Shown: positions 2,547 through 23,374, counted from the stretch's first letter. The stretch: 64,000 nucleotides of DNA from Candidatus Palauibacter irciniicola (GCA_009836005.1 VXWG01000053.1:45722-109721); one strand, 5' to 3'. The notes: generated by a model not told the origin, from the letters alone. Numbers and translations are program-made.

Positions 2547-3683
2547 ATGGGCGTTCGGGGGAAAACCGGAGAACGAGTGAAGCCGGATAGGTTGAGTCGA
2601 CGCGACTGGCTGAAGCTTGGTGCCGCGGGGGTGGCCGGCGTATCGGGCGCGACGGTGCTGGACCTGGCGTCCCGGGGCGGCGCGCGAGATGCCCTGGCGG
2701 CCAGCGGCGCCATGCCGCGCGAGCCGGGAGCGGACGCCGCCGCCGCGGGCCCGCACGCGGGACACCAGGAGGCGATGGGGATCGTCGGCATGCCCGGGCC
2801 CGACGGAGCGTTCGATCCGGCGGCCTTCCTCACGGACTTCGACTACGGGGAGGTCACGACCCGCGCCGACGGCCGCGTCGTGCGACGCTGGCAGATGGTG
2901 GCGCTGGACCGGGAGATCGAGATCGCGCCCGGCGTCTTCTTCCCGGCGTGGACCTACAACGGGCAGGTGCCGGGCCCGACCCTGCGCTGCACCGAGGGGG
3001 ACATCCTCCAGGTCGAGTTTACGAACGCGGGCTCGCACCCCCACACCATCCATTTCCACGGCACGCACCCGCCGGAGATGGACGGCTTCGAACCCATCGT
3101 GGAGCCGGGGCAGCGTTTCACCTACGAGTTCGAGGCGAAGCCGTTCGGGCTCCACCTGTACCACTGCCACACGATGCCGCTCAAGCGGCACATCCATAAG
3201 GGTCTGTATGGGGCGTTCATCGTCGATCCGCCCGAAGGCCGGGAACCGGCGCGGGAGATGGTCATGGTGATGAACGCGTTCGACAGCAACCTGGACGGCG
3301 ACAACGAGGTGTACGCCGTCAACACGTCGGCGTTCTACTACCACCACCATCCCGTGCGCGTGGGCGTGAACGACCTGTGCCGCATCTATCTCGTGAACAC
3401 GACCGAGTTCGACCTCATCAACTCGTTCCACCTGCACGCGGGCATGTTCAAGGTGTTCCGGACCGGTACGCGGCCGGACCAGTACGAACTCACGGACACG
3501 ATCATGATGTGCCAGGGCGAGCGTCACGTCCTCGAGTTCCGGCTCGAGAACCCCGGCATGCACATGTTCCACGCGCACCAGAGCGAGTTCGCGGAACTGG
3601 GGTGGATGGGCTTCTTCGAGGCGGTCGAGCGGCTCGCCGCCGGCGAGGGCGTGCCCGTGGGCCCCGCGCCGAGCGATGTCTGA
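2547..3683 (+). CDS. Tat-exported two-domain cupredoxin / multicopper-oxidase family protein (NirK-like copper motifs)
   Basis: Twin-arginine signal RRDWLKLGAAG. Copper-ligand motifs HPHTIHFHG, YHCHTMP...HIH, HLHAG and MFHAHQ. Size (378 aa) fits a 2-domain MCO/NirK fold. Confidence 0.8.
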   Translation: MGVRGKTGERVKPDRLSRRDWLKLGAAGVAGVSGATVLDLASRGGARDALAASGAMPREPGADAAAAGPHAGHQEAMGIVGMPGPDGAFDPAAFLTDFDYGEVTTRADGRVVRRWQMVALDREIEIAPGVFFPAWTYNGQVPGPTLRCTEGDILQVEFTNAGSHPHTIHFHGTHPPEMDGFEPIVEPGQRFTYEFEAKPFGLHLYHCHTMPLKRHIHKGLYGAFIVDPPEGREPAREMVMVMNAFDSNLDGDNEVYAVNTSAFYYHHHPVRVGVNDLCRIYLVNTTEFDLINSFHLHAGMFKVFRTGTRPDQYELTDTIMMCQGERHVLEFRLENPGMHMFHAHQSEFAELGWMGFFEAVERLAAGEGVPVGPAPSDV

Positions 3684-4902
3684 CGAGCGGTCCGAAGCCG
3701 CTCCGCGCCGGAGCGGCCCGGCGCGCTGGGTCCTGGGCCTCTTCCCGCTCGCGCTGCTGGCGGGGCTCGTCGCGTTTTTCTTCGGCGCCGATCCCACGGC
3801 CCCCTTCCGGGACGCCTTCCCGCCCGTCGAGGACCTCACGATCGAACGCGTGAGCTTCCCGGAGAACGGCGTCATGCGCGTGCACGTCGTGAACGGCGGT
3901 CCCGAGGCGGCCACCATCGCGCAGGTGATCGTCGACGATGCCTACTGGCAGTTCGAGATCGATGGCGATCCGACCCTGCCGCGTCTCGCCCGCGCCACCC
4001 TCGAACTGGACTATCCCTGGGTCGAAGGTGAACTCCACGTCATCCGGCTGGTGACCTCCACGGGACTCACCTTCGACCGCGAGGTGGCGGTAGCGACGCT
4101 CTCGCCGCGCCCCAACGCGCTTTACCTGACCACTTTCGGGCTACTCGGCCTCTACGCGGGCGTGATCCCCGTCCTCGTCGGCCTGTTGTGGTATCCCTTC
4201 CTGCGCCGGATCGACCGCAAGTGGATCCACTTCTATCTCAGCCTCACCGTGGGCCTGCTGGCGTTCCTCGTCGTCGATGCGTTCGAGGACACGCTCGAGG
4301 CGTCGGCGCTCGTGCCGGAGGGATTTCAGGCCGCCGGGCTCATCGCCGTCGGGGTCATCGGCGCCATCGTCGGCCTCAGGGCCCTCGGTAACCTCGGACG
4401 CGGCCGGAGCGGCGGAGACTCCGCGGGCGCGGGCGGCGGTGGGCCGAGCCCCGGGCTCACGGTGGCGTACCTGATCGCCATCAGCATCGGACTGCACAAC
4501 CTCGGCGAGGGGCTCGCGATCGGGGCGGCCTTCTCCCTCGGCGAGATCGCGCTCGGAAGCTTCCTCGTCATCGGCTTCGCGCTCCACAACACGACGGAGG
4601 GGCTGGCGATCGTCGCCCCCGTCGCGGACCGGCGGCCGGCGCTGCGGCACTTCGCCTTCATGGGCGGCATCGCCGGACTGCCGACCGTCCTGGGGGCGTG
4701 GGCGGGCGGTTTCTCCTACTCGCCGACGCTGGCGACCTTCTTCCTCGCCCTCGGCGCCGGAGCCATCCTGCAGGTCATCGTCGAGGTCACCCGGCTGATC
4801 CGGAAGAGCTGGCCGCAGGGCCTGTTCACCCCCCTCAACGCCACGGGCCTCCTCCTCGGCCTGCTGGTCATGTACGGCACCGCGCTCATGGTGACCGCCT
4901 AG
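3676..4902 (+). CDS. ZIP-family metal transporter with an extra N-terminal TM helix plus roughly 130-aa extracytoplasmic domain
   Basis: ZIP signature helices GLHNLGEGLAIG and ALHNTTEGLAI, and a Gly-rich cytoplasmic loop. The start overlaps the MCO stop by 8 nt (translational coupling). Confidence 0.7.
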   Translation: MSDERSEAAPRRSGPARWVLGLFPLALLAGLVAFFFGADPTAPFRDAFPPVEDLTIERVSFPENGVMRVHVVNGGPEAATIAQVIVDDAYWQFEIDGDPTLPRLARATLELDYPWVEGELHVIRLVTSTGLTFDREVAVATLSPRPNALYLTTFGLLGLYAGVIPVLVGLLWYPFLRRIDRKWIHFYLSLTVGLLAFLVVDAFEDTLEASALVPEGFQAAGLIAVGVIGAIVGLRALGNLGRGRSGGDSAGAGGGGPSPGLTVAYLIAISIGLHNLGEGLAIGAAFSLGEIALGSFLVIGFALHNTTEGLAIVAPVADRRPALRHFAFMGGIAGLPTVLGAWAGGFSYSPTLATFFLALGAGAILQVIVEVTRLIRKSWPQGLFTPLNATGLLLGLLVMYGTALMVTA

Positions 4903-4946
4903 CCTGACGGCGTAGACCGGTGTGGTGTCACACCAAAGGAGGCACG

Positions 4947-5378
4947 ATGCTCGGCGGCAGAAACCCCGGCCTCGGTCTGGCCATCCTTCGCGTCGCGGTC
5001 GGACTGATCTTCGTGATGCACGGCTGGCCAAAGCTGGCCGGCGGCATCGAGGGCACCGCGGCCTTCCTCGGGTCGCTCGGCGTCCCGCTCTCGGCGATCG
5101 GGGCGTGGGGGATCGCGCTGGCCGAGACCCTGGGCGGCGCATGCCTGATCGCGGGCCTGTTCGTGACGCCCTTCGCCCTGCTCCTCGCCGCGCACATGCT
5201 GGCGGGGATCTTTCTCGTGCACCTGGCCAACGGCTTCTACGTCGTGGGCCCGGGCCAGGGAGGCTACGAGTTCAACCTGCTCCTGATCGCCGCCCTGCTG
5301 ACCCTCGTGCTGGCCGGATCGGGGATCGCGACGCTCAAGAGCCTCTTCACGAGCGACGTCGAGGTGGTGATCGACTGA
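4947..5378 (+). CDS. DoxX-family membrane protein
   Basis: Roughly 140 aa with four predicted TM helices and an N-terminus LGLAILRVAVGLIFVMHGWPKL typical of DoxX. The ORF track starts at 4920; the ATG at 4947 is preferred. Confidence 0.65.
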   Translation: MLGGRNPGLGLAILRVAVGLIFVMHGWPKLAGGIEGTAAFLGSLGVPLSAIGAWGIALAETLGGACLIAGLFVTPFALLLAAHMLAGIFLVHLANGFYVVGPGQGGYEFNLLLIAALLTLVLAGSGIATLKSLFTSDVEVVID

Positions 5379-5387
5379 GACTTGGCG

Positions 5388-5879
5388 TCAGTCGCCGGGC
5401 GGAGGGCCGAGCGGGCTCGGCTCGCAGTTCTCCGTCTCGCGGGTGTAGGCGATGCTGGAGATCTTCCAGCCGTCGCTCGTGCGCACGAGGCTCACCGCGT
5501 CGATCCCGCAGTGGCTGAACTCGCCGTCCACGTGGAAGTCGTAGGGCGTCCACACGACGGCGATCGGACCCTCGATCATCACGTGCGGTTCCCACATTCG
5601 CTCCAGCAGGGCGGGGCCCGGCTGACCGATGGAGGCGGCGAACTCGGTGCCGGTGCTCTCCCGGACCTGCACGCCGTCCGGGGTCTCCGCCGTAGCCACG
5701 AAGGTGGCGCCGTCGGTGAGCAGGCCGCGGATCGCATCGCCGTCGCGGGCCGCCATGGCGTCGAACAGGGCCTGCACGGCGGCGACCGCCCCCGCCTCGG
5801 CGTCATCCTGCGCGGCGGCGTACGCGGGCGCGGCGAGGGTCACCGCGGCGAGAAGCAACATGGCTTCGAACTTCTTCAT
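5388..5879 (-). CDS. Secreted NTF2-like (SnoaL/DUF4440-type) protein
   Basis: The C-terminal 163 aa of the 631-aa track ORF start MKKFEAMLLLAAVTLAAPAYA (signal peptide) and continue as an NTF2-like fold. The ATG at 5879 was located by codon arithmetic. The upstream part of that long ORF is GC-frame noise. Confidence 0.6.
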   Translation of the reverse strand: MKKFEAMLLLAAVTLAAPAYAAAQDDAEAGAVAAVQALFDAMAARDGDAIRGLLTDGATFVATAETPDGVQVRESTGTEFAASIGQPGPALLERMWEPHVMIEGPIAVVWTPYDFHVDGEFSHCGIDAVSLVRTSDGWKISSIAYTRETENCEPSPLGPPPGD

Positions 5880-5926
5880 GAGATTCTCCCGATTCCTGTG
5901 GTCGGTCGTCGTGGACTTTCCCGGCC

Positions 5927-7717
5927 TCAATACGCGGCCGTGCGAAACACCGGCTGGAAGAGTCGGGTGCGGTGCGCGCAGACGGGGTCCGCGGGGCACG
6001 CCGCGCAGTCGGGTTCCGTCATCTCCGGGCAACGCGTCCGGTTCTGAAAGAAGAACCAGTCCACGGCCCCCATGGAGCGCCCGCTCAGCCGCCGGACCTC
6101 GCCCACCACCTCGTAACAGGCGGCGCGCACGGCCTCCTCCTCCTCCGCGCTCACAACCTCCCGCTTCGCGAGCTTCGCGGCCAGCGTCTCGTCGTTCACG
6201 GAGACGACGCCGAGCCGCAGGCAACTGCGCTGGCAGTGATAGTCGACGATCGGCGGCACGTCCTCCGCCTTCCCGAGCCGCAGGAAGCGTTCCGGCCGCT
6301 GGTTGAGGATCGCCGCGAGGAGGGCGGACTTCTTCCGCCACGGGTCCTCCTTGTAGCCGCCGACCGCATCGAGACGCGCGAGGAAGCGGGCGAGGGGTCG
6401 CTCCGTGGCGTTGGCTTCGGCCAGGAGCGACGCCGGGGTCAGGCCGAGGCCCAGCATGTCGCGGCCGTACGCGCGCGCGCACGCCGGATGGAGGGTGCCC
6501 GCGGGGAGCGGGTTGTGCCCGCCGTCGTCCCGCAGGCGGTGATCGAAGTCCGCGTCGTCGAGAGCGGCCTGACCGGCGGGGGCGAGTTCGTCCGGGGCTT
6601 CGCGGGCCCAGCGCCGGTAGGCGGCCCACAGGTAATCGCTTCCCTTGCGGGTCCGGCCGTCCAGAGAGGCGATCATGGGTTCGCCGTAGCGGCCCGCGCG
6701 CTCGTGCCAGAAACCGAACTGCTGCACGGTCCCGGCGAAGAAGAAATCGAGCGCCGCCGGATCGCCGGGTTCCGGAAAGTCCGCGCCGGTGAAGTCGAAC
6801 GCCGCCGCCTCCGGGGCCGTCGCGATGACCCCGGCCACCCGCCGAAAACGGTCCCGGTCGAGGCGGACCCGAGCATCTCGCGGCGCCGGTGGAGGCGGAC
6901 TGTCCGAGAGGAGCGGCGCCGGACCGATGTCCGTCACCGTCTCCGCGGCACAGGCCGCCGCAACGCGCGCGGCGATGGCGGGATGGTCGCCGGCCGCGAC
7001 CCTGGCCAGCGCCGTCCCGCAGAAGGTGTCGCCGGCGCCCGTCGGATCCACCTGCTCGACCTCGGGGGCGGGGACGTCGATCGCGTGGTCGCCCAGGACG
7101 ACGCGAGCCCCGCGCGGTCCCCGGGTGACGAAGACCGCGCGCCCCGGCGCGACCGCCACCCGATCGAGCGACCCGAAGAGGAGACCGGCCTCCTCTTCGT
7201 TGCAGAAGAAGTAGTGGGACGCTTCCACGACGCGCTCGACGACCTCCGGGTGCGCGCGGATCCCCGGCGCGTACGTCCCGCACCCCACGCGCACGCCCGC
7301 CGCGGCCAGCCGCCGCGCGAACCCCAACTGCAGCTCCGGGTCGAGGAGGGGGACGACGTACGCGAAGGCCCCCGGCCCCGCGTCGGGGATGTCGCCGTAG
7401 CGGATGTCCCCCTCGGAACCGCGCACCGCCTGGCGATAGACGGTCCGGCCGTCGGGGAAGTACTCGATCTCGAAGTGCGGGAGCGCGGAGGGCGGCACCG
7501 GCGGCCCCCGCCAGTCGAGGAGGCGGTCCGCCGGCTCGAGTTCCGCCGGCATGGGATCGGGGCGCGGCGCGACGACCGTGACGGCGGCTCCGACCCGCTG
7601 CGCCGCGAGCGCGGTGTAGAGTCCCGCGCCTCCGGCGGACCGCACGGAGCGGCCGCCGAGGTGCAGGAGGTCCAGTGAGGGGCTCCCGACCACGAGGAGC
7701 CGTGGCCGGGCGCTCAT
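5927..7717 (-). CDS. PfkB-family (ribokinase-like) kinase fused to a roughly 300-aa Cys-rich C-terminal domain of uncertain function
   Basis: The N-terminal half has PfkB motifs (GGxxxN-like region, DPTGAGDTF anion hole). The C-terminal half (FFAGTVQQFGFW...DYHCQRSCLRLGVV...CPEMTEPDCAACPADPVC) matches no family I can name with confidence. Confidence 0.65.
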   Translation of the reverse strand: MSARPRLLVVGSPSLDLLHLGGRSVRSAGGAGLYTALAAQRVGAAVTVVAPRPDPMPAELEPADRLLDWRGPPVPPSALPHFEIEYFPDGRTVYRQAVRGSEGDIRYGDIPDAGPGAFAYVVPLLDPELQLGFARRLAAAGVRVGCGTYAPGIRAHPEVVERVVEASHYFFCNEEEAGLLFGSLDRVAVAPGRAVFVTRGPRGARVVLGDHAIDVPAPEVEQVDPTGAGDTFCGTALARVAAGDHPAIAARVAAACAAETVTDIGPAPLLSDSPPPPAPRDARVRLDRDRFRRVAGVIATAPEAAAFDFTGADFPEPGDPAALDFFFAGTVQQFGFWHERAGRYGEPMIASLDGRTRKGSDYLWAAYRRWAREAPDELAPAGQAALDDADFDHRLRDDGGHNPLPAGTLHPACARAYGRDMLGLGLTPASLLAEANATERPLARFLARLDAVGGYKEDPWRKKSALLAAILNQRPERFLRLGKAEDVPPIVDYHCQRSCLRLGVVSVNDETLAAKLAKREVVSAEEEEAVRAACYEVVGEVRRLSGRSMGAVDWFFFQNRTRCPEMTEPDCAACPADPVCAHRTRLFQPVFRTAAY

Positions 7718-7727
7718 GCCGCCGGCG

Positions 7728-9107
7728 TCAGTCGCCCTGCTGCTGGTCCGTCGTGATGCGCCCGGCGGCGCCGGCGGGCCCGTTGTCCCAGTCCTGGGCG
7801 CTGGAGATGTTCGGCACGCCCCAGTCGTCGCCGTTCCAGCCCTGGAAGCCCTCCATCCGGAAGGTCCACAGACCCGTCGTCATGTCGCTCACCACGATGA
7901 GCCCGTCCGCGTTCCGGATGTCGACCCCGAACGTGCCGTTGAAGACAGGGGTCCGGTCGACGTTCGGCGGCCCCAGGTAGGTGTCGTAGTGGCCCACCGT
8001 CATCGGGTTCTCCGGGTCCATCATGTTGAACACGACGAGCCCGTCCAGGTAGCCGGACACGAACACGAGCGGCCAACGCACCTCGTGGTTGTGCACGAGG
8101 TTCTTCCAGTTCGCCGTCCACGCCGCGATCGGGCGGTTGATCGCGGACACCTCGCCGTTCAGCCCCGGCCTGAGGTCGAAGATCCTGAGCGGCGCGTACT
8201 GATACTCCGTCTCGGCGATCGCGAAGTTGCCGTCCGGCGTGGGCGTGAACGTGTGGCCGCTCCGAATCCCGGAGACCCCGACGATCTGCGTCAGAAGCTG
8301 GGGATCCTGGAGATCCGACACGTCGTAGATGTAGTAGCCGCCGGTGCCGCCGCCGTAGAAGCGGTCCGTCCCGGTTTCCGGGTGGTAGCCGAGATAGAAG
8401 TCGTGGTATCCCCGCCGCCGGTTCCCCTCCATCCCCTGATCCGGGACCGGGATCTGCGCCACCATCTGGTCGCCGCGCCCGTCGACGAGGGCGCCGAGGT
8501 CGTAGACGGCCGCGTACGGTCCCGAGACCGTGGCGACGAGATACACGTTCATGTTCGAGTGCTTGTAGATGAAGATGTTGTGGAAGCCGCCGGGGAGATC
8601 GGGCTCCTTGATGCGGGCCACCTCGCGCACCGTCGAGGCGTCCGGCAGTCCCGTGACGTCGAGGACGACGGCCCCCATGTCGGAGTCCGGGCCGCCCTGC
8701 CCGAACTGGAGCGACTGCACGACGTAGTAGCGGTCGCCCCACTTGAAGTGCTTCACGTCCATCCCGCCGGTGCGCTGGTGGAGGTCCTGGTCCTCGATCC
8801 GCCACTCGTAGAGCACCTCGGGGTTCTCCGGGTCCTCGATCGAGACGATGTCCAGCCCTTTCGGGCCGACCGGTCCGTACTGCATGCGCGCCACGTACGC
8901 GTAGGGCCGGTGCATCTCCTGCTCGATGTCCATGTCCGCGATGCTGAGCCGGGGCCCGAGCGGAATGTGGCCGAGCACTTCCATGTTCCGGCTGCCGCGC
9001 TCGACCACCCCGTCGATGAGCTGCGCGCTCAGCGCGTGCGGCGCGGCGAGAGCCGCTCCGAGCACGGCGGCCGCCGAGAGTGTCAGGGTCCGATTTCCAA
9101 CCTTCAT
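7728..9107 (-). CDS. Secreted beta-propeller-like hypothetical protein
   Basis: Start MKVGNRTLTLSAAAVLGAALAAPHALSA (signal peptide) with a GGAGGAAAGA ribosome-binding site just upstream. The protein is Gly/Asp/Tyr-rich with repeats, consistent with a beta-propeller. No confident family assignment. Confidence 0.5.
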   Translation of the reverse strand: MKVGNRTLTLSAAAVLGAALAAPHALSAQLIDGVVERGSRNMEVLGHIPLGPRLSIADMDIEQEMHRPYAYVARMQYGPVGPKGLDIVSIEDPENPEVLYEWRIEDQDLHQRTGGMDVKHFKWGDRYYVVQSLQFGQGGPDSDMGAVVLDVTGLPDASTVREVARIKEPDLPGGFHNIFIYKHSNMNVYLVATVSGPYAAVYDLGALVDGRGDQMVAQIPVPDQGMEGNRRRGYHDFYLGYHPETGTDRFYGGGTGGYYIYDVSDLQDPQLLTQIVGVSGIRSGHTFTPTPDGNFAIAETEYQYAPLRIFDLRPGLNGEVSAINRPIAAWTANWKNLVHNHEVRWPLVFVSGYLDGLVVFNMMDPENPMTVGHYDTYLGPPNVDRTPVFNGTFGVDIRNADGLIVVSDMTTGLWTFRMEGFQGWNGDDWGVPNISSAQDWDNGPAGAAGRITTDQQQGD

Positions 9108-9141
9108 TCTTTCCTCCGTTTTCGAACTGGCGGCCCGCGAG

Positions 9142-10833
9142 CTAGCCGGGGTCCACCGTGAACAGCATGGACATGCCGGCCTCCAGGTGCTCCGCAATAT
9201 GGCAGTGCGCCATCCAGCGGCCAGAGTTGGAGGCCTCGAGCAGGATGTCGAACGTCGACCCGACCGGGATCACCATCGTGTCCTTCCATGCGAGATTGTC
9301 CGACGGCACCCCGTCCCTCGCGAGAATCAGGAAGCGCTGCCCGTGGATGTGGATCGGGTGCTGCATGGGGTGGAACGAACGGCGCTGGTTGTGGATCCGG
9401 ATCTTGAGGATGTCCCCCTCCGCGAAGCGCCAGTCGATGTCCCCGTTCTCCTTCCCCGTGCGCGTGTCGCGCATGATCCACGTCAGGTTCTCCGACGTCG
9501 AGAGGTAGTTCATCATCGGCATCGCGTCCGTCCATTCGACGGGCGGGAAGTACAGCGTGTCGATCGCCATCACGGCGACGATGTCGCTGGGCAGGTCCCC
9601 CACGCGTGCCGTGAGTTCGATCTCGTGGTCGACGGGCCGGTCGAACTCGGCGCGGTAACGGTCGATGTCCTCGATGACGTCCGCGTGTTCGCGCAGCGTG
9701 GAGAACGCGTCCCCGTGGTCCTCCGCGACCGGTTCGTCGAGGACGGTGATGATCCCGAGCGTGTCCGTCTGCGGATAGAAGCGGCCGTTGAAGTGGTCGA
9801 TGGCCTGGATGGGGTTGAGGAGCGCGTACGTGCCGGGTTCGTCGAACCGCGCATCCACGATGTACCGCTGGGCGGGGGCGAGGACGACGTTGGAGACGAA
9901 GCTCTCGCGCTCGAACTTGCTCACGTCGGCGCCCACCAGCTTCATCTCCGCGCCCACCAGGACGAGGTTGAAGGTGCGCGTGTTCGCGACGTTCGTGAGA
10001 TAGAGCCGGCGGACCTCGCCGCGGCGGACCGTGGCCTCCCAGCGCGGCTCGCCGTTCACGAGCAACTGGTTCCCGAACCGGCCCATCAGCGTCTGGATGG
10101 CGGCTTCGCGTCCCCAGGGGAAGAGTCCGCCTTCGTCGACGAGCAGGTCGTCGAGCATGAGGAAGTCCTCGCCGTTCGCGGGGCCGTAGTAGTCCGCGGC
10201 AGGCGCGTCGACCAGCATGTTCCCGTACAGGCCGAGGTCCTGCTGGATGTCCTCGCGGTGGTGCGGGTGGTACCAGTAAAGACCGGCGTCGGGGAAGTAG
10301 ACCCGGTACATGAACGACTCGCCCGGGGCGACCGGGTCCTGGGTGACGCCGGGCACGCCGTCGAACTCGTTCTCGAGTCGCAGGCCGTGCCAGTGGACCG
10401 CCGTGGGCAGGTCGATGTGGTTCGTGAACAGGACGATGATCTCCGCGCCCTGCGGGACGCGGATGAGGGGTCCGGGATACTGCCCGTTGAAGCCGTACAT
10501 GGTGAAGGTCCGCGTCCCGATCGTGCGCCGGACGAACCCGGCCTCGAGACGGAGCGTGTCGCCGTCGGCCATCTCCACGACCTCGCGGAAGACCGCCTCC
10601 GGAAGCATGGCGGGATCGTGGCCGGGGTCGGGCAGGTACGGGGTCACTCCGGGGACGGCGCCCATCAGGCCCGGGAGCATCATCGGCATCGGGATCGGCT
10701 GCGGCGGCATCCGCCACACGGCCCCGATGCTGTCCGTCGCCATCATGTGGCCCGCGTGCTGTTGCCCCGCGGCCGGGGCGAGGCCCAGCCACAGCGGTGC
10801 GGAGAGGGTCGCGGCGACGGCCAGGTAGCGCAC
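9142..10833 (-). CDS. Three-domain multicopper oxidase, CopA/CueO-like, with a Met-rich segment
   Basis: Copper motifs HWHG, WYHPH, HPIHIHG and HCHIAEHLEAGM. Met-rich stretch MPPQPIPMPMMLPGLMG. N-terminal signal peptide. A GTG start at 10833 is inferred from the 652-aa ORF. Confidence 0.8.
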   Translation of the reverse strand: MRYLAVAATLSAPLWLGLAPAAGQQHAGHMMATDSIGAVWRMPPQPIPMPMMLPGLMGAVPGVTPYLPDPGHDPAMLPEAVFREVVEMADGDTLRLEAGFVRRTIGTRTFTMYGFNGQYPGPLIRVPQGAEIIVLFTNHIDLPTAVHWHGLRLENEFDGVPGVTQDPVAPGESFMYRVYFPDAGLYWYHPHHREDIQQDLGLYGNMLVDAPAADYYGPANGEDFLMLDDLLVDEGGLFPWGREAAIQTLMGRFGNQLLVNGEPRWEATVRRGEVRRLYLTNVANTRTFNLVLVGAEMKLVGADVSKFERESFVSNVVLAPAQRYIVDARFDEPGTYALLNPIQAIDHFNGRFYPQTDTLGIITVLDEPVAEDHGDAFSTLREHADVIEDIDRYRAEFDRPVDHEIELTARVGDLPSDIVAVMAIDTLYFPPVEWTDAMPMMNYLSTSENLTWIMRDTRTGKENGDIDWRFAEGDILKIRIHNQRRSFHPMQHPIHIHGQRFLILARDGVPSDNLAWKDTMVIPVGSTFDILLEASNSGRWMAHCHIAEHLEAGMSMLFTVDPG

Positions 10834-10859
10834 TGTCCTCGGTCGCCGCCCGGGTGGAA

Positions 10860-11453
10860 TCAGAAGTAGAGTTGGCAGTTCATGGCCTCGAACGGGCCGT
10901 GGCCGGCCATCGTGTGCAGCCGGCCGGAGGGGGAGAGGCCGGTGAGCACGATCGGCCCCTGCCAGCGCTCGACGTCGGTCGACGCCTCCTCGCTCACGAA
11001 CACGAGGAACTGGTTCCACGCGAGCCGCGCCGTGAGCCGGTTCTCTTCGCCGAGCGTGCCGAGCTGCACCCACTCGTCGAGTTCGGGCTTCGCGGCCCAC
11101 GCGACGTAGACCGCCTCGCCGCGGCGGCGCAGCCGGTCGACCTGGATCTCGACGTCGAACGTCTGGAAGCCGCCGTCGTCCACGGTGATCTCGAACGGCG
11201 AGCCGGGCTGCGTGAGCGTCATCGACCCGCGGCTCCCGGGGGCGCTCTGCGTGCCCGAGAGGGGAACCACTTCGGGCGTGACGAGGCAGGCGTCGATCCG
11301 GGGCGTTGCGTCAACCCACGGCGCCGCGCCGGCTGGAGCCGGGATGTCACTCGGCCCGGCAGCCCGTGCCTCGCCCGATACGAGCGAGCCGAGGGCGATC
11401 GCGAAGACGGCGGTGGCGCCGATCGCGCCGGTGTGCGGTTTCATGCGCTTCAT
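10860..11453 (-). CDS. Small secreted hypothetical protein
   Basis: The C-terminal 197 aa of the 467-aa track ORF start MKRMKPHTGAIGATAVFAIALGSLVSGEARA (signal peptide), with an ATG at 11453. No recognizable domain. It lies between the dioxygenase and MCO genes. Confidence 0.5.
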   Translation of the reverse strand: MKRMKPHTGAIGATAVFAIALGSLVSGEARAAGPSDIPAPAGAAPWVDATPRIDACLVTPEVVPLSGTQSAPGSRGSMTLTQPGSPFEITVDDGGFQTFDVEIQVDRLRRRGEAVYVAWAAKPELDEWVQLGTLGEENRLTARLAWNQFLVFVSEEASTDVERWQGPIVLTGLSPSGRLHTMAGHGPFEAMNCQLYF

Positions 11454-11527
11454 GTTCGAAAGGTCGATTCCGGCGCCCCGCCTTGCAAGCGCCGGCGGCC
11501 GGGCGCGTGCACCCGGCGGTCGACCCC

Positions 11528-12358
11528 TCAGTCCGACGCGGGCCGCCCGGCCCTCCCGCGTCTGCCGCTGCGGCCGTCGGGCCGGCCGGTCTCGGCATCC
11601 GTGAGATCGAGGCCCAGGTCGAAGGTGGCCGCGTATCCGTGGTCCGTCTCGCTGACCCGGGCCATCAGGCTCTCGCCACCGTCGCGGCGAAAGATGCCGT
11701 CGTCCGCGTTGGTCACGGGGCGCCGCCCGCGCGCCGCGTACGGCGCCTGCGCGTGCACTTCGTCCGTGAGCGCCTCGTCGAAGTAGAGCTGCGAGGTGAA
11801 CTCGTACGGCTGGCCGGAGACGTCGGTGCGCACCTTGAAGTGTACGTGCACGGCGCGCCCGCGGTACCAGCCCGGAAAGATCGTCGTGAAACGGGCCAGC
11901 CCCTCCTCGTCCGTGCGCTGGTAGCCCCGGAGGAAGTGCCGTTCCCTCGCCGATTCGGGCGCGCCGTCGTCCTCCACGCCCGAGTACACGCCGTCGGCGT
12001 CGCACTGCCACACGTCGATCAGCGCGCCGGGAAGCGCCGAACAGTCGCCCCGGGAGATTTGCGAGAGGTTGAACCCGAGCGTCAGCGGGATGCCCTCGCT
12101 CACCGTTCCGGTCGACGGATCGGACCGAATGTCGGAGCGTTCGAGCCGCGCGTCGACGAAGAACGGCCCTTCGGTCTGTTCGGGCTTCGCCACGCAGGCG
12201 GGCAGCGCACGGGCGATCCCGTCCGCCTGGGCGGCGAGAGGGGTGCCCGTTCCCAGAACCCACCGACCGGCGGCCAGCGCCCCGCCCCCGACGCCGAGGG
12301 CGGCGAGAACCTCGCGCCGCGTCAGTACCCGACCCCGTTCAATGTCCTCGTGCTCCAT
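11528..12358 (-). CDS. Tat-exported intradiol ring-cleavage dioxygenase family protein
   Basis: Twin-arginine signal TRREVLAALGVGGG. Dioxygenase_C-type motifs PEQTEGPFF, LIDVWQCDADGVYS and HVHFKV. Confidence 0.75.
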   Translation of the reverse strand: MEHEDIERGRVLTRREVLAALGVGGGALAAGRWVLGTGTPLAAQADGIARALPACVAKPEQTEGPFFVDARLERSDIRSDPSTGTVSEGIPLTLGFNLSQISRGDCSALPGALIDVWQCDADGVYSGVEDDGAPESARERHFLRGYQRTDEEGLARFTTIFPGWYRGRAVHVHFKVRTDVSGQPYEFTSQLYFDEALTDEVHAQAPYAARGRRPVTNADDGIFRRDGGESLMARVSETDHGYAATFDLGLDLTDAETGRPDGRSGRRGRAGRPASD

Positions 12359-14595: not shown

Positions 14596-15120
14596 TCAGC
14601 CTCCTCCGTCTTCGGCCGACTGGTCGTGGACGATGAGCCAGGCCCCCTCCACGTTCAGCAGGACGAGCGTGAACGGTCCCGTCGACGTGACCGCCCCCTC
14701 GCGTTCGAGGACGTAACGCGCCGTCGCCACGCCGACCCGCTCATCCACCTCCCGAACCCGCAGGCCCTCGAAGCGGAGGCTGTCCCGCGCCGCGCCCTGC
14801 GCGAATCCCGGGGCGTATCGCTCCCGAATCCCGTCGTAGCCCTCGATGAGTCCCGTCGATCCGATATAGGTCGTCGTCGGAGATGGAGAGTAGGCGCTCA
14901 TGAAGCCGTCGAGGTCGCCCCCGTTCCACGCCGCCGCCTGCCGGTCGAGCAGGGAGGCGACCTGCTCGGCGAGATCGGGCCCCTCGTCCGGTGCCGGAGC
15001 GCCGTTGCTGTCCAGCCGCACGAAGCGGCAGCCCCCTGTCACGAGTCCGGCGGTCAGGGCGACCGCCGTCGCCGCCGCGAGCCCTGAACGTCGCCTCCGG
15101 CTCGATCGGTTTCGGGTCAT
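14596..15120 (-). CDS. DUF4440/NTF2-like lipoprotein
   Basis: The C-terminal 174 aa of the 362-aa track ORF start MTRNRSSRRRRSGLAAATAVALTAGLVTGGC (lipobox), followed by an NTF2-like fold (WNGGDLDGFMSAY...). ATG at 15120. Confidence 0.55.
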   Translation of the reverse strand: MTRNRSSRRRRSGLAAATAVALTAGLVTGGCRFVRLDSNGAPAPDEGPDLAEQVASLLDRQAAAWNGGDLDGFMSAYSPSPTTTYIGSTGLIEGYDGIRERYAPGFAQGAARDSLRFEGLRVREVDERVGVATARYVLEREGAVTSTGPFTLVLLNVEGAWLIVHDQSAEDGGG

Positions 15121-18610: not shown

Positions 18611-18684
<74 letters not shown>

Positions 18685-18689
18685 TCCCT

Positions 18690-18728
18690 CGCCTCGCCTC
18701 GCAAAGCTGCGGGGCGAGGCGTTTTGCT
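18690..18728 (+). terminator. GC-rich hairpin (CGCCTCGCC...GGCGAGGCG) followed by TTTTG, just after tRNA-fMet
   Basis: A 9-bp perfect inverted repeat followed by a T-run. Seen directly in the sequence. Confidence 0.35.
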
Positions 18729-18759
18729 CTCCGATCCCTTTTGCGGGACGGGGATACGA

Positions 18760-18832
18760 TCCGGGGTAGCTCAGTGGCCAGAGCGGGTGGCTGTTAACCA
18801 CTAGGTCGTGGGTTCGAATCCCACCCCCGGAG
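18760..18832 (+). tRNA. tRNA-Asn(GTT)
   Basis: Cloverleaf with anticodon loop CTGTTAA and T-arm GGTTCGAATCC. Confidence 0.8.
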
Positions 18833-18865
18833 TCGGGCAGCAGGGCTCTTGCCACGGGCTGCCAT

Positions 18866-18938
18866 GGCTGGGTAGCTCAGGCGGTAGAGCACGGCGCTGA
18901 AAACGCCGGTGTCGGCGGTTCGACTCCGCCCCCAGCCA
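18866..18938 (+). tRNA. tRNA-Phe(GAA)
   Basis: Cloverleaf with anticodon loop CTGAAAA. Confidence 0.8.
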
Positions 18939-18979
18939 TTGCCACGGGCCGCCGACGGCCGGTTCGCGGGAAGCGGCAG

Positions 18980-19052
18980 AGGGGCGTAGCTCAATTGGTA
19001 GAGCACCGGTCTCCAAAACCGGCGGTTGGGGGTTCGAGTCCCTCCGCCCCTG
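18980..19052 (+). tRNA. tRNA-Trp(CCA)
   Basis: Near-identical to E. coli tRNA-Trp, with anticodon loop CTCCAAA. Confidence 0.8.
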
Positions 19053-19055
19053 TCG

Positions 19056-19127
<72 letters not shown>

Positions 19128-19153
19128 TGGAGCAGCTTGGAACGGGATAGCGG

Positions 19154-19228
19154 GCGCCCGTAGCTCAGTTGGATCAGAGCACCGGCCTTCTAAGCCGGGG
19201 GTCCCAGGTTCGAGTCCTGGCGGGCGCG
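19154..19228 (+). tRNA. tRNA-Arg(TCT)
   Basis: Cloverleaf with anticodon loop CTTCTAA. Confidence 0.8.
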
Positions 19229-19255
19229 TGGCAAAAGGGGACGACAGCGGCACGA

Positions 19256-19327
19256 GCCCCCATCGTCCAACGGCTAGGACACCACTCTTTCAAGGTGGAG
19301 ATAGGGGTTCGATTCCCCTTGGGGGTA
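19256..19327 (+). tRNA. tRNA-Glu(TTC)
   Basis: Cloverleaf with anticodon loop CTTTCAA and a Glu-type D-arm GTCCAACGGCTAGGAC. Confidence 0.75.
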
Positions 19328-19389
19328 CTGGACGGAAGGCAGGACGGGACCGACGCCAGCCCGTCCGCGTGAAGCGACAGTCGAAGCGC

Positions 19390-19462
19390 GGGGCCGTAGC
19401 TCAGCTGGGAGAGCGCTGCAATGGCATTGCAGAGGTCAGGGGTTCGAATCCCCTCGGCTCCA
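19390..19462 (+). tRNA. tRNA-Ala(GGC)
   Basis: Cloverleaf with anticodon loop ATGGCAT and a G3:U70-compatible acceptor stem GGGGCCG/CGGCTCC. Confidence 0.8.
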
Positions 19463-19517
19463 TTTCGCGGCCCGCGGTTTGCCCGCCGAGGCCGCGAACG
19501 AGAGCTTTGAAGCTGTA

Positions 19518-19591
<74 letters not shown>

Positions 19592-22936: not shown

Positions 22937-23011
22937 GCGCCCGTAGCTCAGCCTGGATAGAGCGCTTGCCTCCGGAGCAAGAGGTCACAGGTTCGAATCC
23001 TGTCGGGCGCA
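22937..23011 (+). tRNA. tRNA-Arg(CCG)
   Basis: Cloverleaf with anticodon loop CTCCGGA. Confidence 0.8.
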
Positions 23012-23082
23012 CTCGTCCCGGCGGAGCCAGCGGCACCGGTTCTCGGGGGCGACTCCCCGGACCCGAGGGTTCAGGGGCGCAG

Positions 23083-23167
23083 GCTCGGGTGGCGGAAATG
23101 GCAGACGCGCAGGATTCAGGATCCTGTGGGATTAAACTCCCGTGGGGGTTCGACTCCCCCCCCGAGC
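23083..23167 (+). tRNA. tRNA-Leu(CAG)
   Basis: Type II tRNA with a long variable arm and anticodon loop TTCAGGA. The D-arm GGCGGAAATGGCAGACGC is Leu-like. Confidence 0.75.
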
Positions 23168-23173
23168 ATTTCA

Positions 23174-23259
23174 GGCCCAGGTGGCGGAACTGGCAGACGC
23201 GCTAGCTTGAGGGGCTAGTGTCCTTTTACGGACGTGGAGGTTCGAATCCTCTCCTGGGC
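23174..23259 (+). tRNA. tRNA-Leu(GAG)
   Basis: Type II tRNA with anticodon loop CTTGAGG. Similar to E. coli tRNA-Leu. Confidence 0.75.
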
Positions 23260-23300
23260 ATGCAGCACGACATCGCCGATCGCTGTACGACCGGCTCCGA

Positions 23301-23374
23301 GCGCCCGTAGCTCAACTGGATAGAGCACCTGACTACGGATCAGGAGGTTGGGGATTCGAATTCTCCCGGGCGCA
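23301..23374 (+). tRNA. tRNA-Arg(ACG)
   Basis: Cloverleaf with anticodon loop CTACGGA. Confidence 0.8.

What the first reader, a model, noticed from the sequence alone, without database searches (positions are those of the whole stretch)
5388..12358. Six-gene minus-strand operon of exported phenol/copper oxidation enzymes
- **Gene order:** Tat-signal intradiol ring-cleavage dioxygenase, small secreted protein, Met-rich CopA/CueO-like 3-domain MCO, secreted beta-propeller, PfkB-kinase fusion, secreted NTF2-like protein.
- **Spacing:** all are co-directional with 3-50 bp gaps.
- **Interpretation:** a periplasmic catechol-cleaving dioxygenase next to a laccase-like MCO suggests an extracytoplasmic phenolic / lignin-fragment oxidation module rather than simple copper resistance.
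- **Open question:** the 197-aa secreted protein between them has no recognizable domain. It could be a copper chaperone or a substrate-binding partner.
Basis: inference. Interest (0 to 1): 0.5.

Follow-up and report, generated by a model that had tools for sequence, protein, structure and literature searches.

The report
Conserved copper-oxidase trio, plus unrelated neighbours
The six genes are real, but the conserved unit is only three of them: a multicopper oxidase always found with two uncharacterised secreted partners in several bacterial phyla, which points to copper handling more than phenol or lignin breakdown.

Summary
All six minus-strand genes exist at 5388-12358 with the predicted identities. 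The source is a sponge-associated Gemmatimonadota genome (Ca. Palauibacter). The "six-gene operon" is a slice of a 12-gene co-directional block, and it is a mosaic.

Among 62 related loci with enough flank, the 197-aa protein lies beside this oxidase type in 62 and beside the beta-propeller in 61. These loci span Gemmatimonadota, Rhodothermales and Acidobacteriota. The dioxygenase is present in only 10, all Palauibacter-like, and its relatives elsewhere have unrelated neighbours.

A 45-nt element unique in the window sits directly upstream of the small gene in about 20 genomes, whether the dioxygenase or FxsA precedes it. That suggests an own promoter.

- **Small protein:** a beta-sandwich with an invariant H-x-M-x-x-H...C tail. 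One lineage fuses it in frame to the oxidase.
- **Oxidase:** conserved His/Met-rich segments.
- **Propeller:** one subfamily-specific His per blade.

Best reading: a periplasmic copper-oxidase system with two new partner families. This function is inferred, not shown. The phenolic-module reading is not supported.

The parts
11528..12358 (-). Secreted (Tat-like signal) intradiol ring-cleavage dioxygenase, 276 aa. A lineage-specific neighbour, not part of the conserved core.
   Evidence: PF00775 scores 37.2 bits against a cut-off of 27.3. The best solved relatives are the spider-mite secreted dioxygenase 6BDJ/5VG2 (E 2e-24) and Streptomyces 4ILT/4ILV. Y125, Y165, H171 and H173 align with the conserved Tyr/Tyr/His/His. 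It is present next to the trio in 10 of 62 loci.
11454..11490 (-). Conserved non-coding element GCTTGCR-N17-ACCTTTCGA-N1-2, directly upstream of the small gene's ATG. Probably the module's own promoter or operator. There is no Shine-Dalgarno sequence, so the mRNA may be leaderless.
   Evidence: The invariant columns cluster in the last ~45 nt before the ATG in 17 genomes, while the sequence further upstream is unalignable. The element is kept whether the upstream gene is the dioxygenase or FxsA. It occurs once in the 64-kb window against 0.01 expected. It occurs once per locus, always at this position, in 20 loci.
10860..11453 (-). 197-aa secreted partner protein. It is a Greek-key beta-sandwich with a C-terminal H180-T-M182-A-G-H185-G...C193 tail. 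Proposed copper-binding partner of the oxidase.
9142..10833 (-). Three-domain multicopper oxidase, 563 aa, with a Sec-type signal, a His/Met-rich mature N-terminus, a WRMPP...MPMMLPGL motif and a ~110-aa insert carrying MPMMN.
   Evidence: Three Cu-oxidase Pfam domains. The HWHG, WYHPHH, HPIHIHG and HCHIAEHLEAGM motifs are present and conserved in 72 family members. The nearest structures are 4F7K, 6VOW, Thermus MCO and CueO. It scores below the CueO and CopA equivalog cut-offs. Family N-termini are shown.
7728..9107 (-). Secreted seven-bladed beta-propeller, 459 aa, of LVIVD type, with one subfamily-specific His per blade. It is the most conserved member of the trio.
5927..7717 (-). Cytoplasmic PfkB-kinase fusion, 596 aa. 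It starts 10 nt after the propeller gene and travels with the trio only in Gemmatimonadota.
   Evidence: PF00294 matches residues 158-267. The C-terminal ~310 aa has no Pfam, NCBIfam or PDB hit. It has no signal peptide. It is present in 24/62 loci.
5388..5879 (-). Secreted NTF2/SnoaL-like (DUF4440) protein, 163 aa, the last gene of the block. It is convergent with DoxX.
   Evidence: DUF4440 scores 25.6 bits and SnoaL_3 24.8 bits. The signal peptide is MKKFEAMLLLAAVTLAAPAYAAA. It is present in 19/62 loci.

Best explanation
The region is a mosaic, not one six-gene pathway.

**Shown**
- The evolutionarily conserved unit is a three-gene module: the small beta-sandwich protein, a three-domain multicopper oxidase and a seven-bladed propeller.
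- The module recurs as a tight, same-strand cluster in Gemmatimonadota, Rhodothermales and Acidobacteriota. The order is either small-MCO-propeller or propeller-small-MCO, among otherwise unrelated neighbours.
- In Palauibacter it has its own conserved upstream element.
- The dioxygenase is a lineage-specific gene sitting upstream of that element.
- The PfkB fusion and the NTF2-like gene are Gemmatimonadota-specific downstream passengers.

**Inferred mechanism**
- The three proteins are exported and act together in the periplasm as a copper-oxidising or copper-handling system.
- The small protein binds Cu through its H-x-M-x-x-H...C tail. It docks on the oxidase so that this tail lies next to the oxidase's His/Met-rich N-terminus. 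The natural fusion joins exactly these two segments.
- The oxidase oxidises Cu(I), or a Cu-bound substrate, at a Met-rich-shielded T1 site and reduces O2 at the trinuclear centre.
- The propeller contributes a subfamily-specific ring of histidines. This ring forms either a further metal site or the docking face for the conserved WRMPP/MPM peptide of the oxidase.
For: **Synteny**
- 319 tblastn-confirmed relatives of the small protein were found in GTDB species genomes.
- In the 62 loci with at least 4.5 kb on both sides, the MCO is present in 62, the propeller in 61 and the dioxygenase in 10.
- Propeller-anchored look-ups give the same trio. So does the cultured Rubrivirga sp. IMCC43871.
- Gaps can be as short as 7 and 13 nt.
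- No other gene family is shared across the distant loci.

**Fusion**
- A small-like domain continues in frame into the MCO in L080, L082 and L060.

**Copper-type features**
- H180, M182, H185 and C193 are invariant in the small protein.
- The MCO mature N-termini are rich in His and Met (QQHAGHMM, QHHHHGH, QHEHHHH). WRMPP...MPMxPGL and MPxMN are conserved, and all four Cu motifs are intact.
- A Tat-exported two-domain MCO, translationally coupled to a ZIP-like transporter, lies convergent to the block.

**Propeller**
- The per-blade His residues are conserved only in the MCO-linked subfamily.
- The closest solved relative by Foldseek E-value and by profile is a propeller with a binuclear metal centre (paper title cited in PMC11656708). 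Both matches are weak.

**Own cis-element**
-.
Against: - No experiment exists, and no paper in the searched library links these families.
- No copper regulator (CueR, CopRS or CsoR) and no CopB, CopC or CopD lies in the annotated 20 kb.
- The fused small-like domain has lost H180 and C193. The tail motif is therefore not indispensable for the sandwich's role.
- I could not inspect model coordinates, so the histidine "ring" geometry is inferred from sequence periodicity only.
- The propeller is the most conserved of the three: about 70% identity, against about 57% for the MCO and about 40% for the small protein. That fits a catalytic role better than an accessory one.
- The His/Met-rich argument for cuprous oxidase activity is by analogy with CueO and PcoA, from established knowledge and not tested here.
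Confidence: 0.5

Rival explanations
1. Two-enzyme periplasmic oxidation system. The propeller is the primary catalyst, a metalloenzyme with a His-liganded metal centre in its central channel. It transforms an unknown small substrate. The MCO acts as its oxidase partner, either as an electron sink to O2 or as the oxidiser of the propeller's product. The small protein is an adaptor or metallochaperone.
For: - The propeller is the most conserved component, at about 70% identity across phyla.
- Its per-blade His residues are subfamily-specific, not fold-determining.
- The top Foldseek and profile hit is the Sphingobium propeller phosphotriesterase with a binuclear metal centre.
- Some genomes carry two propeller paralogues beside one small protein and one MCO.
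Against: - The match to 5HRM is weak. The profile E-value is 0.096, identity is 14% and the TM-score is 0.39.
- No ligand correspondence could be checked.
- No substrate clue comes from the neighbours.
- The His/Met-rich features of the MCO and the small protein are explained more simply by copper handling.
Confidence: 0.27
2. The Tat-exported catechol-cleaving dioxygenase and the laccase-like MCO, with their neighbours, form one extracytoplasmic module for oxidising phenolics or lignin fragments.
For: - The dioxygenase belongs to the secreted intradiol family. Its characterised members cleave catechols and plant catecholics (PMC9167512).
- The ligand positions are intact.
- In this genome and 9 related loci it lies 74 nt upstream on the same strand.
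- No terminator-like site lies in the gap.
- The host is a sponge symbiont, and sponges are rich in phenolics (my own knowledge).
Against: - The adjacency is restricted to one genus-level clade (10/62 loci).
- Sister genomes lack the dioxygenase at this site yet keep the trio and its upstream element.
- Dioxygenase relatives elsewhere have no MCO neighbour.
- No downstream muconate or beta-ketoadipate genes are in the annotated 20 kb.
- The MCO family's distinctive features are His/Met-rich, not an open phenol pocket. That last point is an inference.
Confidence: 0.1
3. Oxidase maturation only. The small protein and the propeller are dedicated assembly factors that load four coppers into a Sec-exported apo-oxidase. 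The oxidase's physiological substrate is something else, such as Mn(II), Fe(II) or an organic compound.
For: - Most family members with unambiguous starts have Sec-type rather than twin-arginine signal peptides, so folding and metallation must occur in the periplasm.
- The small protein combines a CCS-domain-2-like fold with a flexible Cys/His tail. This mirrors the architecture of the copper chaperone for SOD (CCS architecture from established knowledge).
Against: - Assembly factors are usually less conserved than their client. Here the propeller is more conserved than the MCO.
- The fused paralogue lacks the tail ligands.
- Tat-exported CueO is also thought to receive copper in the periplasm without such factors (my knowledge), so the need for dedicated factors is not evident.
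Confidence: 0.13

Closest known systems
CueO / PcoA-PcoC (CopA-CopC) periplasmic copper-oxidase systems
   Same: - It is a periplasmic three-domain MCO with Met/His-rich segments, next to a small periplasmic His/Met copper-binding partner.
- The best NCBIfam partial hits are CueO and CopA, and CueO is among the solved relatives.
   Different: - It scores far below both equivalog cut-offs: 140 against 525 and 131 against 479.
- It has no CopB, CopC or CopD.
- The partner has a different fold (a SOD-like sandwich, not the CopC cupredoxin-like fold) and a different motif.
- A beta-propeller partner is unknown in Pco/Cop systems.
- Most members have a Sec-type rather than a Tat signal.
MnxEFG manganese-oxidase complex of Bacillus (an MCO with two small accessory subunits)
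   Same: The principle is shared: an MCO that works as an obligate complex with co-encoded small proteins that themselves bind copper (from established knowledge).
   Different: - No sequence or fold relation to MnxE or MnxF was found.
- There is a propeller here and none in Mnx.
- The MCO here has three domains, not six.
Copper chaperone for SOD (CCS), domains 2 and 3
   Different: - Identity is 13-15%.
- The tail motif is H-x-M-x-x-H...C, not CXC.
- The client would be an MCO, not SOD.
- The fold score barely exceeds generic Ig-like sandwiches.
Sphingobium sp. TCM1 phosphotriesterase (5HRM), a seven-bladed propeller with a binuclear metal centre
   Same: - It is the top Foldseek hit by E-value (1e-11) and the top, though non-significant, profile hit.
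- It shares LVIVD-type strand motifs.
- It is a precedent for a metal centre in this kind of propeller.
   Different: - Identity is 14% and the TM-score is 0.39.
- Ligand equivalence was not testable.
- It has no MCO partner.
Secreted intradiol ring-cleavage dioxygenases (spider-mite DOGs 6BDJ/5VG2; Streptomyces SACTE_2871 4ILT/4ILV)
   Same: The window's dioxygenase aligns over about 180 residues at E 2e-24, with the Tyr/Tyr/His/His positions conserved, and it carries an export signal.
   Different: - It is a bacterial, Tat-type protein with no carbohydrate-binding module.
- Its substrate is unknown.
- It is not part of the conserved trio.

Membership tests
Intradiol ring-cleavage dioxygenase (PF00775) | Dioxygenase_C domain above Pfam's gathering score | tested here: met
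   37.2 bits against 27.3. Homologues carry a precomputed PF00775 annotation.
Intradiol ring-cleavage dioxygenase (PF00775) | Fe(III) ligands: two Tyr and two His | tested here: met
   Y125 (GVYSG), Y165 (PGWY) and H171/H173 (AVHVH) align with GIYSG, PGHY and PHIH of 6BDJ/5VG2. That these positions are the ligands comes from established knowledge of the family.
Classical protocatechuate 3,4- or catechol 1,2-dioxygenase (NCBIfam equivalogs) | Score above the equivalog cut-off | tested here: not met
   The best hit, TIGR02423, scores 40.4 against 126. The catechol 1,2-dioxygenase models score 22-35 against 359-404.
Three-domain multicopper oxidase | Three cupredoxin domains and the four His-rich copper motifs, including HCH...H...M | tested here: met
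   PF07732, PF00394 and PF07731 are all above cut-off. HWHG at 147, YHPHH at 188, HPIHIHG at 492 and HCHIAEH...M at 543-554 are conserved in 72 relatives.
CueO (NF008205) / CopA-PcoA (TIGR01480) | Score above the curated cut-off | tested here: not met
   139.8 against 525 and 131.4 against 479.
Pco/Cop copper-resistance operon | Co-encoded CopB (outer membrane), CopC and CopD | tested here: not met
   None appears among the called genes and Pfam hits of the 20.6-kb locus around the module, nor in the distant loci.
LVIVD repeat / choice-of-anchor B propellers | Match to PF08309 or TIGR04312 above cut-off | tested here: not met
   There is no Pfam hit at E<=10. TIGR04312 scores 49.9 against 100 and covers only the C-terminal part. 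NCBI nevertheless names close homologues 'LVIVD repeat-containing protein', and the repeat strands are visible by eye.
Cu,Zn superoxide dismutase / CCS domain 2 | SOD-type Greek-key fold | tested here: inconclusive
Cu,Zn superoxide dismutase / CCS domain 2 | Conserved active-site His cluster within the sandwich | tested here: not met
   There is no invariant His inside residues 60-175. The only invariant His, Met and Cys residues are in the C-terminal tail.
Metal-centre beta-propellers (Sb-PTE, NosZ CuZ, thiocyanate dehydrogenase) | His ligands converging on the central channel | not testable with these tools
Only the sequence periodicity is available: one His just before the second DSSP strand of each LVIVD repeat unit (by analogy with the WD40 GH position, the innermost strand A). 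The 5HRM match is weak.
Single operon of six genes | Co-transcription from one promoter | not testable with these tools
   No terminator-like sites lie in the gaps. However, a conserved, locus-specific element lies upstream of the small gene, and the block extends six genes further upstream.

The most novel reading that the evidence does not exclude
The propeller is a previously unrecognised metalloenzyme. It would be an LVIVD-type seven-bladed propeller with a multi-histidine, possibly copper, centre. It would be functionally wired to a dedicated multicopper oxidase through a small adaptor protein. Together they would form a new kind of two-component periplasmic oxidase for a small, still unknown substrate, widespread in marine and sponge-associated Gemmatimonadota, Rhodothermales and Acidobacteriota.
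Probability: 0.22. Interest if true: 0.75.

Novelty: new variant of a known kind. Interest (0 to 1): 0.5.

Why it matters
- **A better-defined object than the original finding.** Multicopper oxidases are usually treated as stand-alone enzymes or as part of Pco/Cop systems. Here one clade is locked across phyla to two secreted partner families that have no Pfam model and no literature in the library searched. The evidence includes a natural fusion and partner-specific conserved metal-type residues.
- **What it would add if the trio is a complex.** It would be a new architecture for periplasmic copper oxidation or for oxidase-coupled catalysis. It would also give functions to two sizeable "hypothetical" families: more than 2,300 propeller clusters passed E<=1e-5 in a capped search, and the small protein has relatives in 319 species genomes.
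- **It is testable.** The module is present in a cultured Rubrivirga isolate.
- **A caution for annotation.** The dioxygenase-laccase adjacency that suggests lignin or phenol chemistry is a clade-specific accident of gene order.

Tried and rejected
- **Known families for the two partners.** Pfam at E<=10, NCBIfam and PDB sequence or profile searches gave nothing significant for the small protein, the propeller or the PfkB C-terminal domain.
- **Literature.** There are no papers with 'multicopper oxidase' plus LVIVD. The 29 LVIVD papers are irrelevant (mostly cardiology) or only call it a surface repeat. The Palauibacterales ecogenomics paper does not mention copper, laccase or dioxygenase.
- **Further conserved neighbours.** Clustering all ORFs of 83 loci found no other family shared by the distant loci. 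A 443-aa protein coupled to HupE/UreJ in L086 is not a propeller paralogue. The unknown proteins beside the dioxygenase in L092 and L094 are unrelated to the trio.
- **Structural role for the propeller's His residues (WD40 'GH' type).** Rejected as the sole explanation, because family members of 45% identity or less keep the fold-type Asp residues and H183 but replace these His residues.
- **The upstream element as sigma-54, RNA hairpin or coding sequence.**
  - The GG/GC spacing does not fit sigma-54.
  - The arms of the apparent hairpin do not co-vary.
  - 1-nt indels before the ATG rule out coding (my reading).
- **Rfam.** There are no RNA families in the region.
- **Inverted repeats and terminators.** None lies in the gaps.
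- **Gammaproteobacterial occurrence (L060).** I do not rely on it, because its MCO N-terminus is nearly identical to the Gemmatimonadota/Longimicrobiales-type loci L074 and L082. The contig is probably mis-binned.

Full report
**Source and gene map**

The window matches an ENA metagenome scaffold exactly. Its proteins are named Gemmatimonadales / Candidatus Palauibacter, and related MAGs come from sponges. GC content is about 70%.

Reading the minus strand, checking GC3 and comparing with independent gene calls on the identical contig gives six genes:

| Gene | Coordinates (minus strand) | Length |
|---|---|---|
| Dioxygenase | 11528-12358 | 276 aa |
| Small protein | 10860-11453 | 197 aa |
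| Multicopper oxidase (GTG start) | 9142-10833 | 563 aa |
| Beta-propeller | 7728-9107 | 459 aa |
| PfkB fusion | 5927-7717 | 596 aa |
| NTF2-like protein | 5388-5879 | 163 aa |

- The gaps are 74, 26, 34, 10 and 47 nt.
- The block does not start at the dioxygenase. FxsA ends 38 nt upstream. Five more co-directional genes precede FxsA: a Cob_adeno_trans-domain protein, a hydrolase, a DUF4440 protein, an FAD reductase and a DUF59 protein. The run therefore has 12 genes, reaching about 16650.
- The block ends convergent with DoxX, a ZIP-like transporter and a two-domain MCO on the plus strand.

**Check of the observation**

- Pfam and NCBIfam confirm the stated identities.
- The dioxygenase has a Tat-like TRREVL motif.
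- The small protein, MCO, propeller and NTF2-like protein have Sec-type signal peptides.
- The PfkB fusion has none and is cytoplasmic, so "exported enzymes" does not describe all six.
- The 197-aa protein and the propeller have no Pfam hit even at E<=10.
- Consensus scans found no terminator in any gap and no sigma-70-like promoter. This has little weight in this phylum.

**What is conserved**

The small protein has 121 homologues, almost all unnamed. A pattern scan of one genome per GTDB species found 319 encoded relatives, and 80 loci were fetched.

I ran tblastn with all window proteins against these loci. Counts for the 62 loci with at least 4.5 kb on both sides:

| Neighbour on the same strand | Loci out of 62 |
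|---|---|
| MCO of this type | 62 |
| Propeller | 61 |
| PfkB fusion | 24 |
| FxsA | 22 |
| NTF2-like protein | 19 |
| Dioxygenase | 10 |

- Gene order is small-MCO-propeller in 33 loci and propeller-small-MCO in 28.
- The trio occurs in Palauibacter, other Gemmatimonadota, Longimicrobiales, Rhodothermales and Acidobacteriota. This includes the cultured Rubrivirga sp. IMCC43871.
- The surrounding genes are unrelated. Clustering all ORFs found no other family shared by the distant loci.
- Look-ups anchored on the propeller instead of the small protein give the same trio.
- Gaps can be as short as 7 and 13 nt.

**The dioxygenase is a separate, lineage-specific neighbour**

- It is a genuine member of the secreted intradiol dioxygenase family.
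  - The best solved relatives are the spider-mite enzyme 6BDJ/5VG2 (E 2e-24) and Streptomyces 4ILT/4ILV.
  - Y125, Y165, H171 and H173 occupy the conserved Tyr/Tyr/His/His positions.
  - Characterised members cleave catechols (PMC9167512).
- In several sister genomes (L006, L016, L018, L019, L021) FxsA abuts the small gene directly.
- Dioxygenase relatives of 56-73% identity in other lineages have unrelated neighbours and no MCO.

**A conserved element upstream of the small gene**

- The roughly 45 nt before the small gene's ATG read GCTTGCR-N17-ACCTTTCGA-N1-2-ATG.
- They are nearly invariant in 17 genomes, while everything further upstream is unalignable. They are retained whether the upstream gene is the dioxygenase or FxsA.
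- The pattern occurs once in the 64-kb window against 0.01 expected. It occurs once per locus, always at this position, in 20 loci.
- One-nucleotide indels just before the ATG exclude coding.
- The small gene and the PfkB fusion are the only genes of the six without a Shine-Dalgarno-like sequence. The PfkB fusion starts only 10 nt after the propeller's stop codon.
- My inference is a dedicated promoter or operator, possibly giving a leaderless transcript. This reads TTGCAA, a 17-nt spacer and GACCTT, with the A2 and T6 positions ending 7 nt before the ATG.

**The small protein**

- AlphaFold2 gives a confident beta-sandwich for residues 60-175 (pLDDT above 90) and a low-confidence C-terminal tail.
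- The sandwich has no invariant His. The invariant metal-type residues H180, M182, H185 and C193 all lie in the tail (GLSPSGRxHTMAGHGPFE..C).
- In L080, L082 and L060, and probably L074, a paralogous small-like domain with a lipobox continues in frame into an MCO of the same family.
- This is one lineage, so probably one fusion event. It still argues for physical association.
- The junction joins the small protein's tail to the oxidase's His/Met-rich N-terminus. The fused copy has lost H180 and C193.

**The oxidase**

- All four copper motifs are present and conserved in 72 relatives.
- The nearest structures are 4F7K, 6VOW/6VOX, Thermus MCO and CueO.
- It scores far below the CueO and CopA equivalog cut-offs.
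- Family-specific features:
  - mostly Sec-type signal peptides;
  - mature N-termini beginning with Gln and rich in His and Met;
  - a conserved WRMPP...MPMxPGL...P(Y/F)LP motif;
  - an insert of about 110 aa before domain 3 with a conserved MPxMN.
- By analogy with CueO and PcoA (established knowledge), such segments bind Cu(I) near the T1 site.

**The propeller**

- AlphaFold2 gives a seven-bladed propeller with pTM 0.82.
- Foldseek's top hit by E-value, and the top (non-significant) profile hit, is 5HRM, the Sphingobium phosphotriesterase. It has LVIVD-like strands. Its paper title describes a binuclear metal centre in a seven-bladed propeller (reference list of PMC11656708). The TM-score of this match is low (0.39).
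- The family is large: 1,833 clusters at 50% identity.
- The MCO-linked subfamily is about 70% identical across phyla. This is more conserved than the MCO (about 57%) or the small protein (about 40%).
- H47, H110, H176, H235, H285, H339 and H341 are at least 94% conserved in 78 MCO-linked members. Most lie just before the second DSSP strand of successive repeat units; by analogy with the WD40 GH position I read that strand as the innermost strand A.
- In family members of 45% identity or less these His residues are replaced by varied residues, while H183 and the repeat Asp residues persist. They are therefore not needed for the fold and mark a subfamily-specific site.
- I could not access coordinates to test whether they converge.

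**Interpretation**

| Reading | Probability |
|---|---|
| Periplasmic copper-oxidase or copper-handling system; the small protein is the copper-binding partner and the propeller provides a histidine site or docking face | about 0.5 |
| The propeller is the primary metalloenzyme and the MCO is its oxidase partner | about 0.27 |
| The two partners are assembly factors only | about 0.13 |

That the trio is the unit of selection is well supported. All functional statements are inference.

**Comparison with known systems**

- The system works most like CueO or PcoA-PcoC. It fails their membership tests on score cut-offs, on the absence of CopB, CopC and CopD, on the partner's fold and on the presence of a propeller.
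- It resembles the MnxEFG complex only in principle.
- Both partner families are unannotated, and I found no literature on them.
- I therefore class it as a new variant of a known kind.

Noticed in passing
window 2577-5378 (+): A Tat-signal two-domain multicopper oxidase (2577-3683) overlaps by 8 nt a 408-aa ZIP-like transporter with an extra N-terminal domain (3676-4902). DoxX follows (4947-5378; weak HvfX-family hit). This set is convergent with the block. The MCO2/ZIP pair travels with the trio in about 12 Gemmatimonadota loci.
   Followed up: partly
L080:4341-6596(-), L082:4362-6641(-), L060:4436-8461(-): In-frame fusions of a small-protein-like domain to an MCO of the same family (L082's ORF begins with a lipobox-like LAGFLPGC). 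They lie 4-5 kb from an unfused propeller-small-MCO trio in the same locus. The fused domain has lost H180 and C193 of the tail motif.
   Followed up: partly
window 5927-6860 (-): The C-terminal ~310 aa of the PfkB fusion has no family or structure hit. It ends in C-x8-C-x2-C-x5-C, a spacing reminiscent of the [4Fe-4S] loop of HhH-GPD glycosylases (from memory). The gene starts only 10 nt after the propeller gene although its product is cytoplasmic.
   Followed up: partly
window 18611-19591 and 22937-23374 (+): Two tRNA gene arrays, of nine and four tRNAs, lie close together.
   Followed up: no
window 14596-15021 (-) and 5388-5879 (-): Two different DUF4440/SnoaL-like genes lie in the 12-gene co-directional block, one upstream of the FAD reductase and one as the last gene.
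   Followed up: no
L084:7175-9891 (Rubrivirga sp. IMCC43871) and several Rhodothermales loci: Two tandem propeller paralogues (62% and 68% identical to the window's propeller) precede one small protein and one MCO.
   Followed up: partly
L060 (VXMG01000042.1, labelled Gammaproteobacteria): Its MCO N-terminal region is nearly identical to those of the Gemmatimonadota/Longimicrobiales-type loci L074 and L082. The contig is probably mis-binned, so the module's presence in Gammaproteobacteria is doubtful.
   Followed up: no
L089-L091: 7927-10374 (-): In one lineage a spermine/spermidine-synthase-like membrane protein gene is inserted on the opposite strand between the small gene and the MCO. The trio is otherwise kept.
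   Followed up: no
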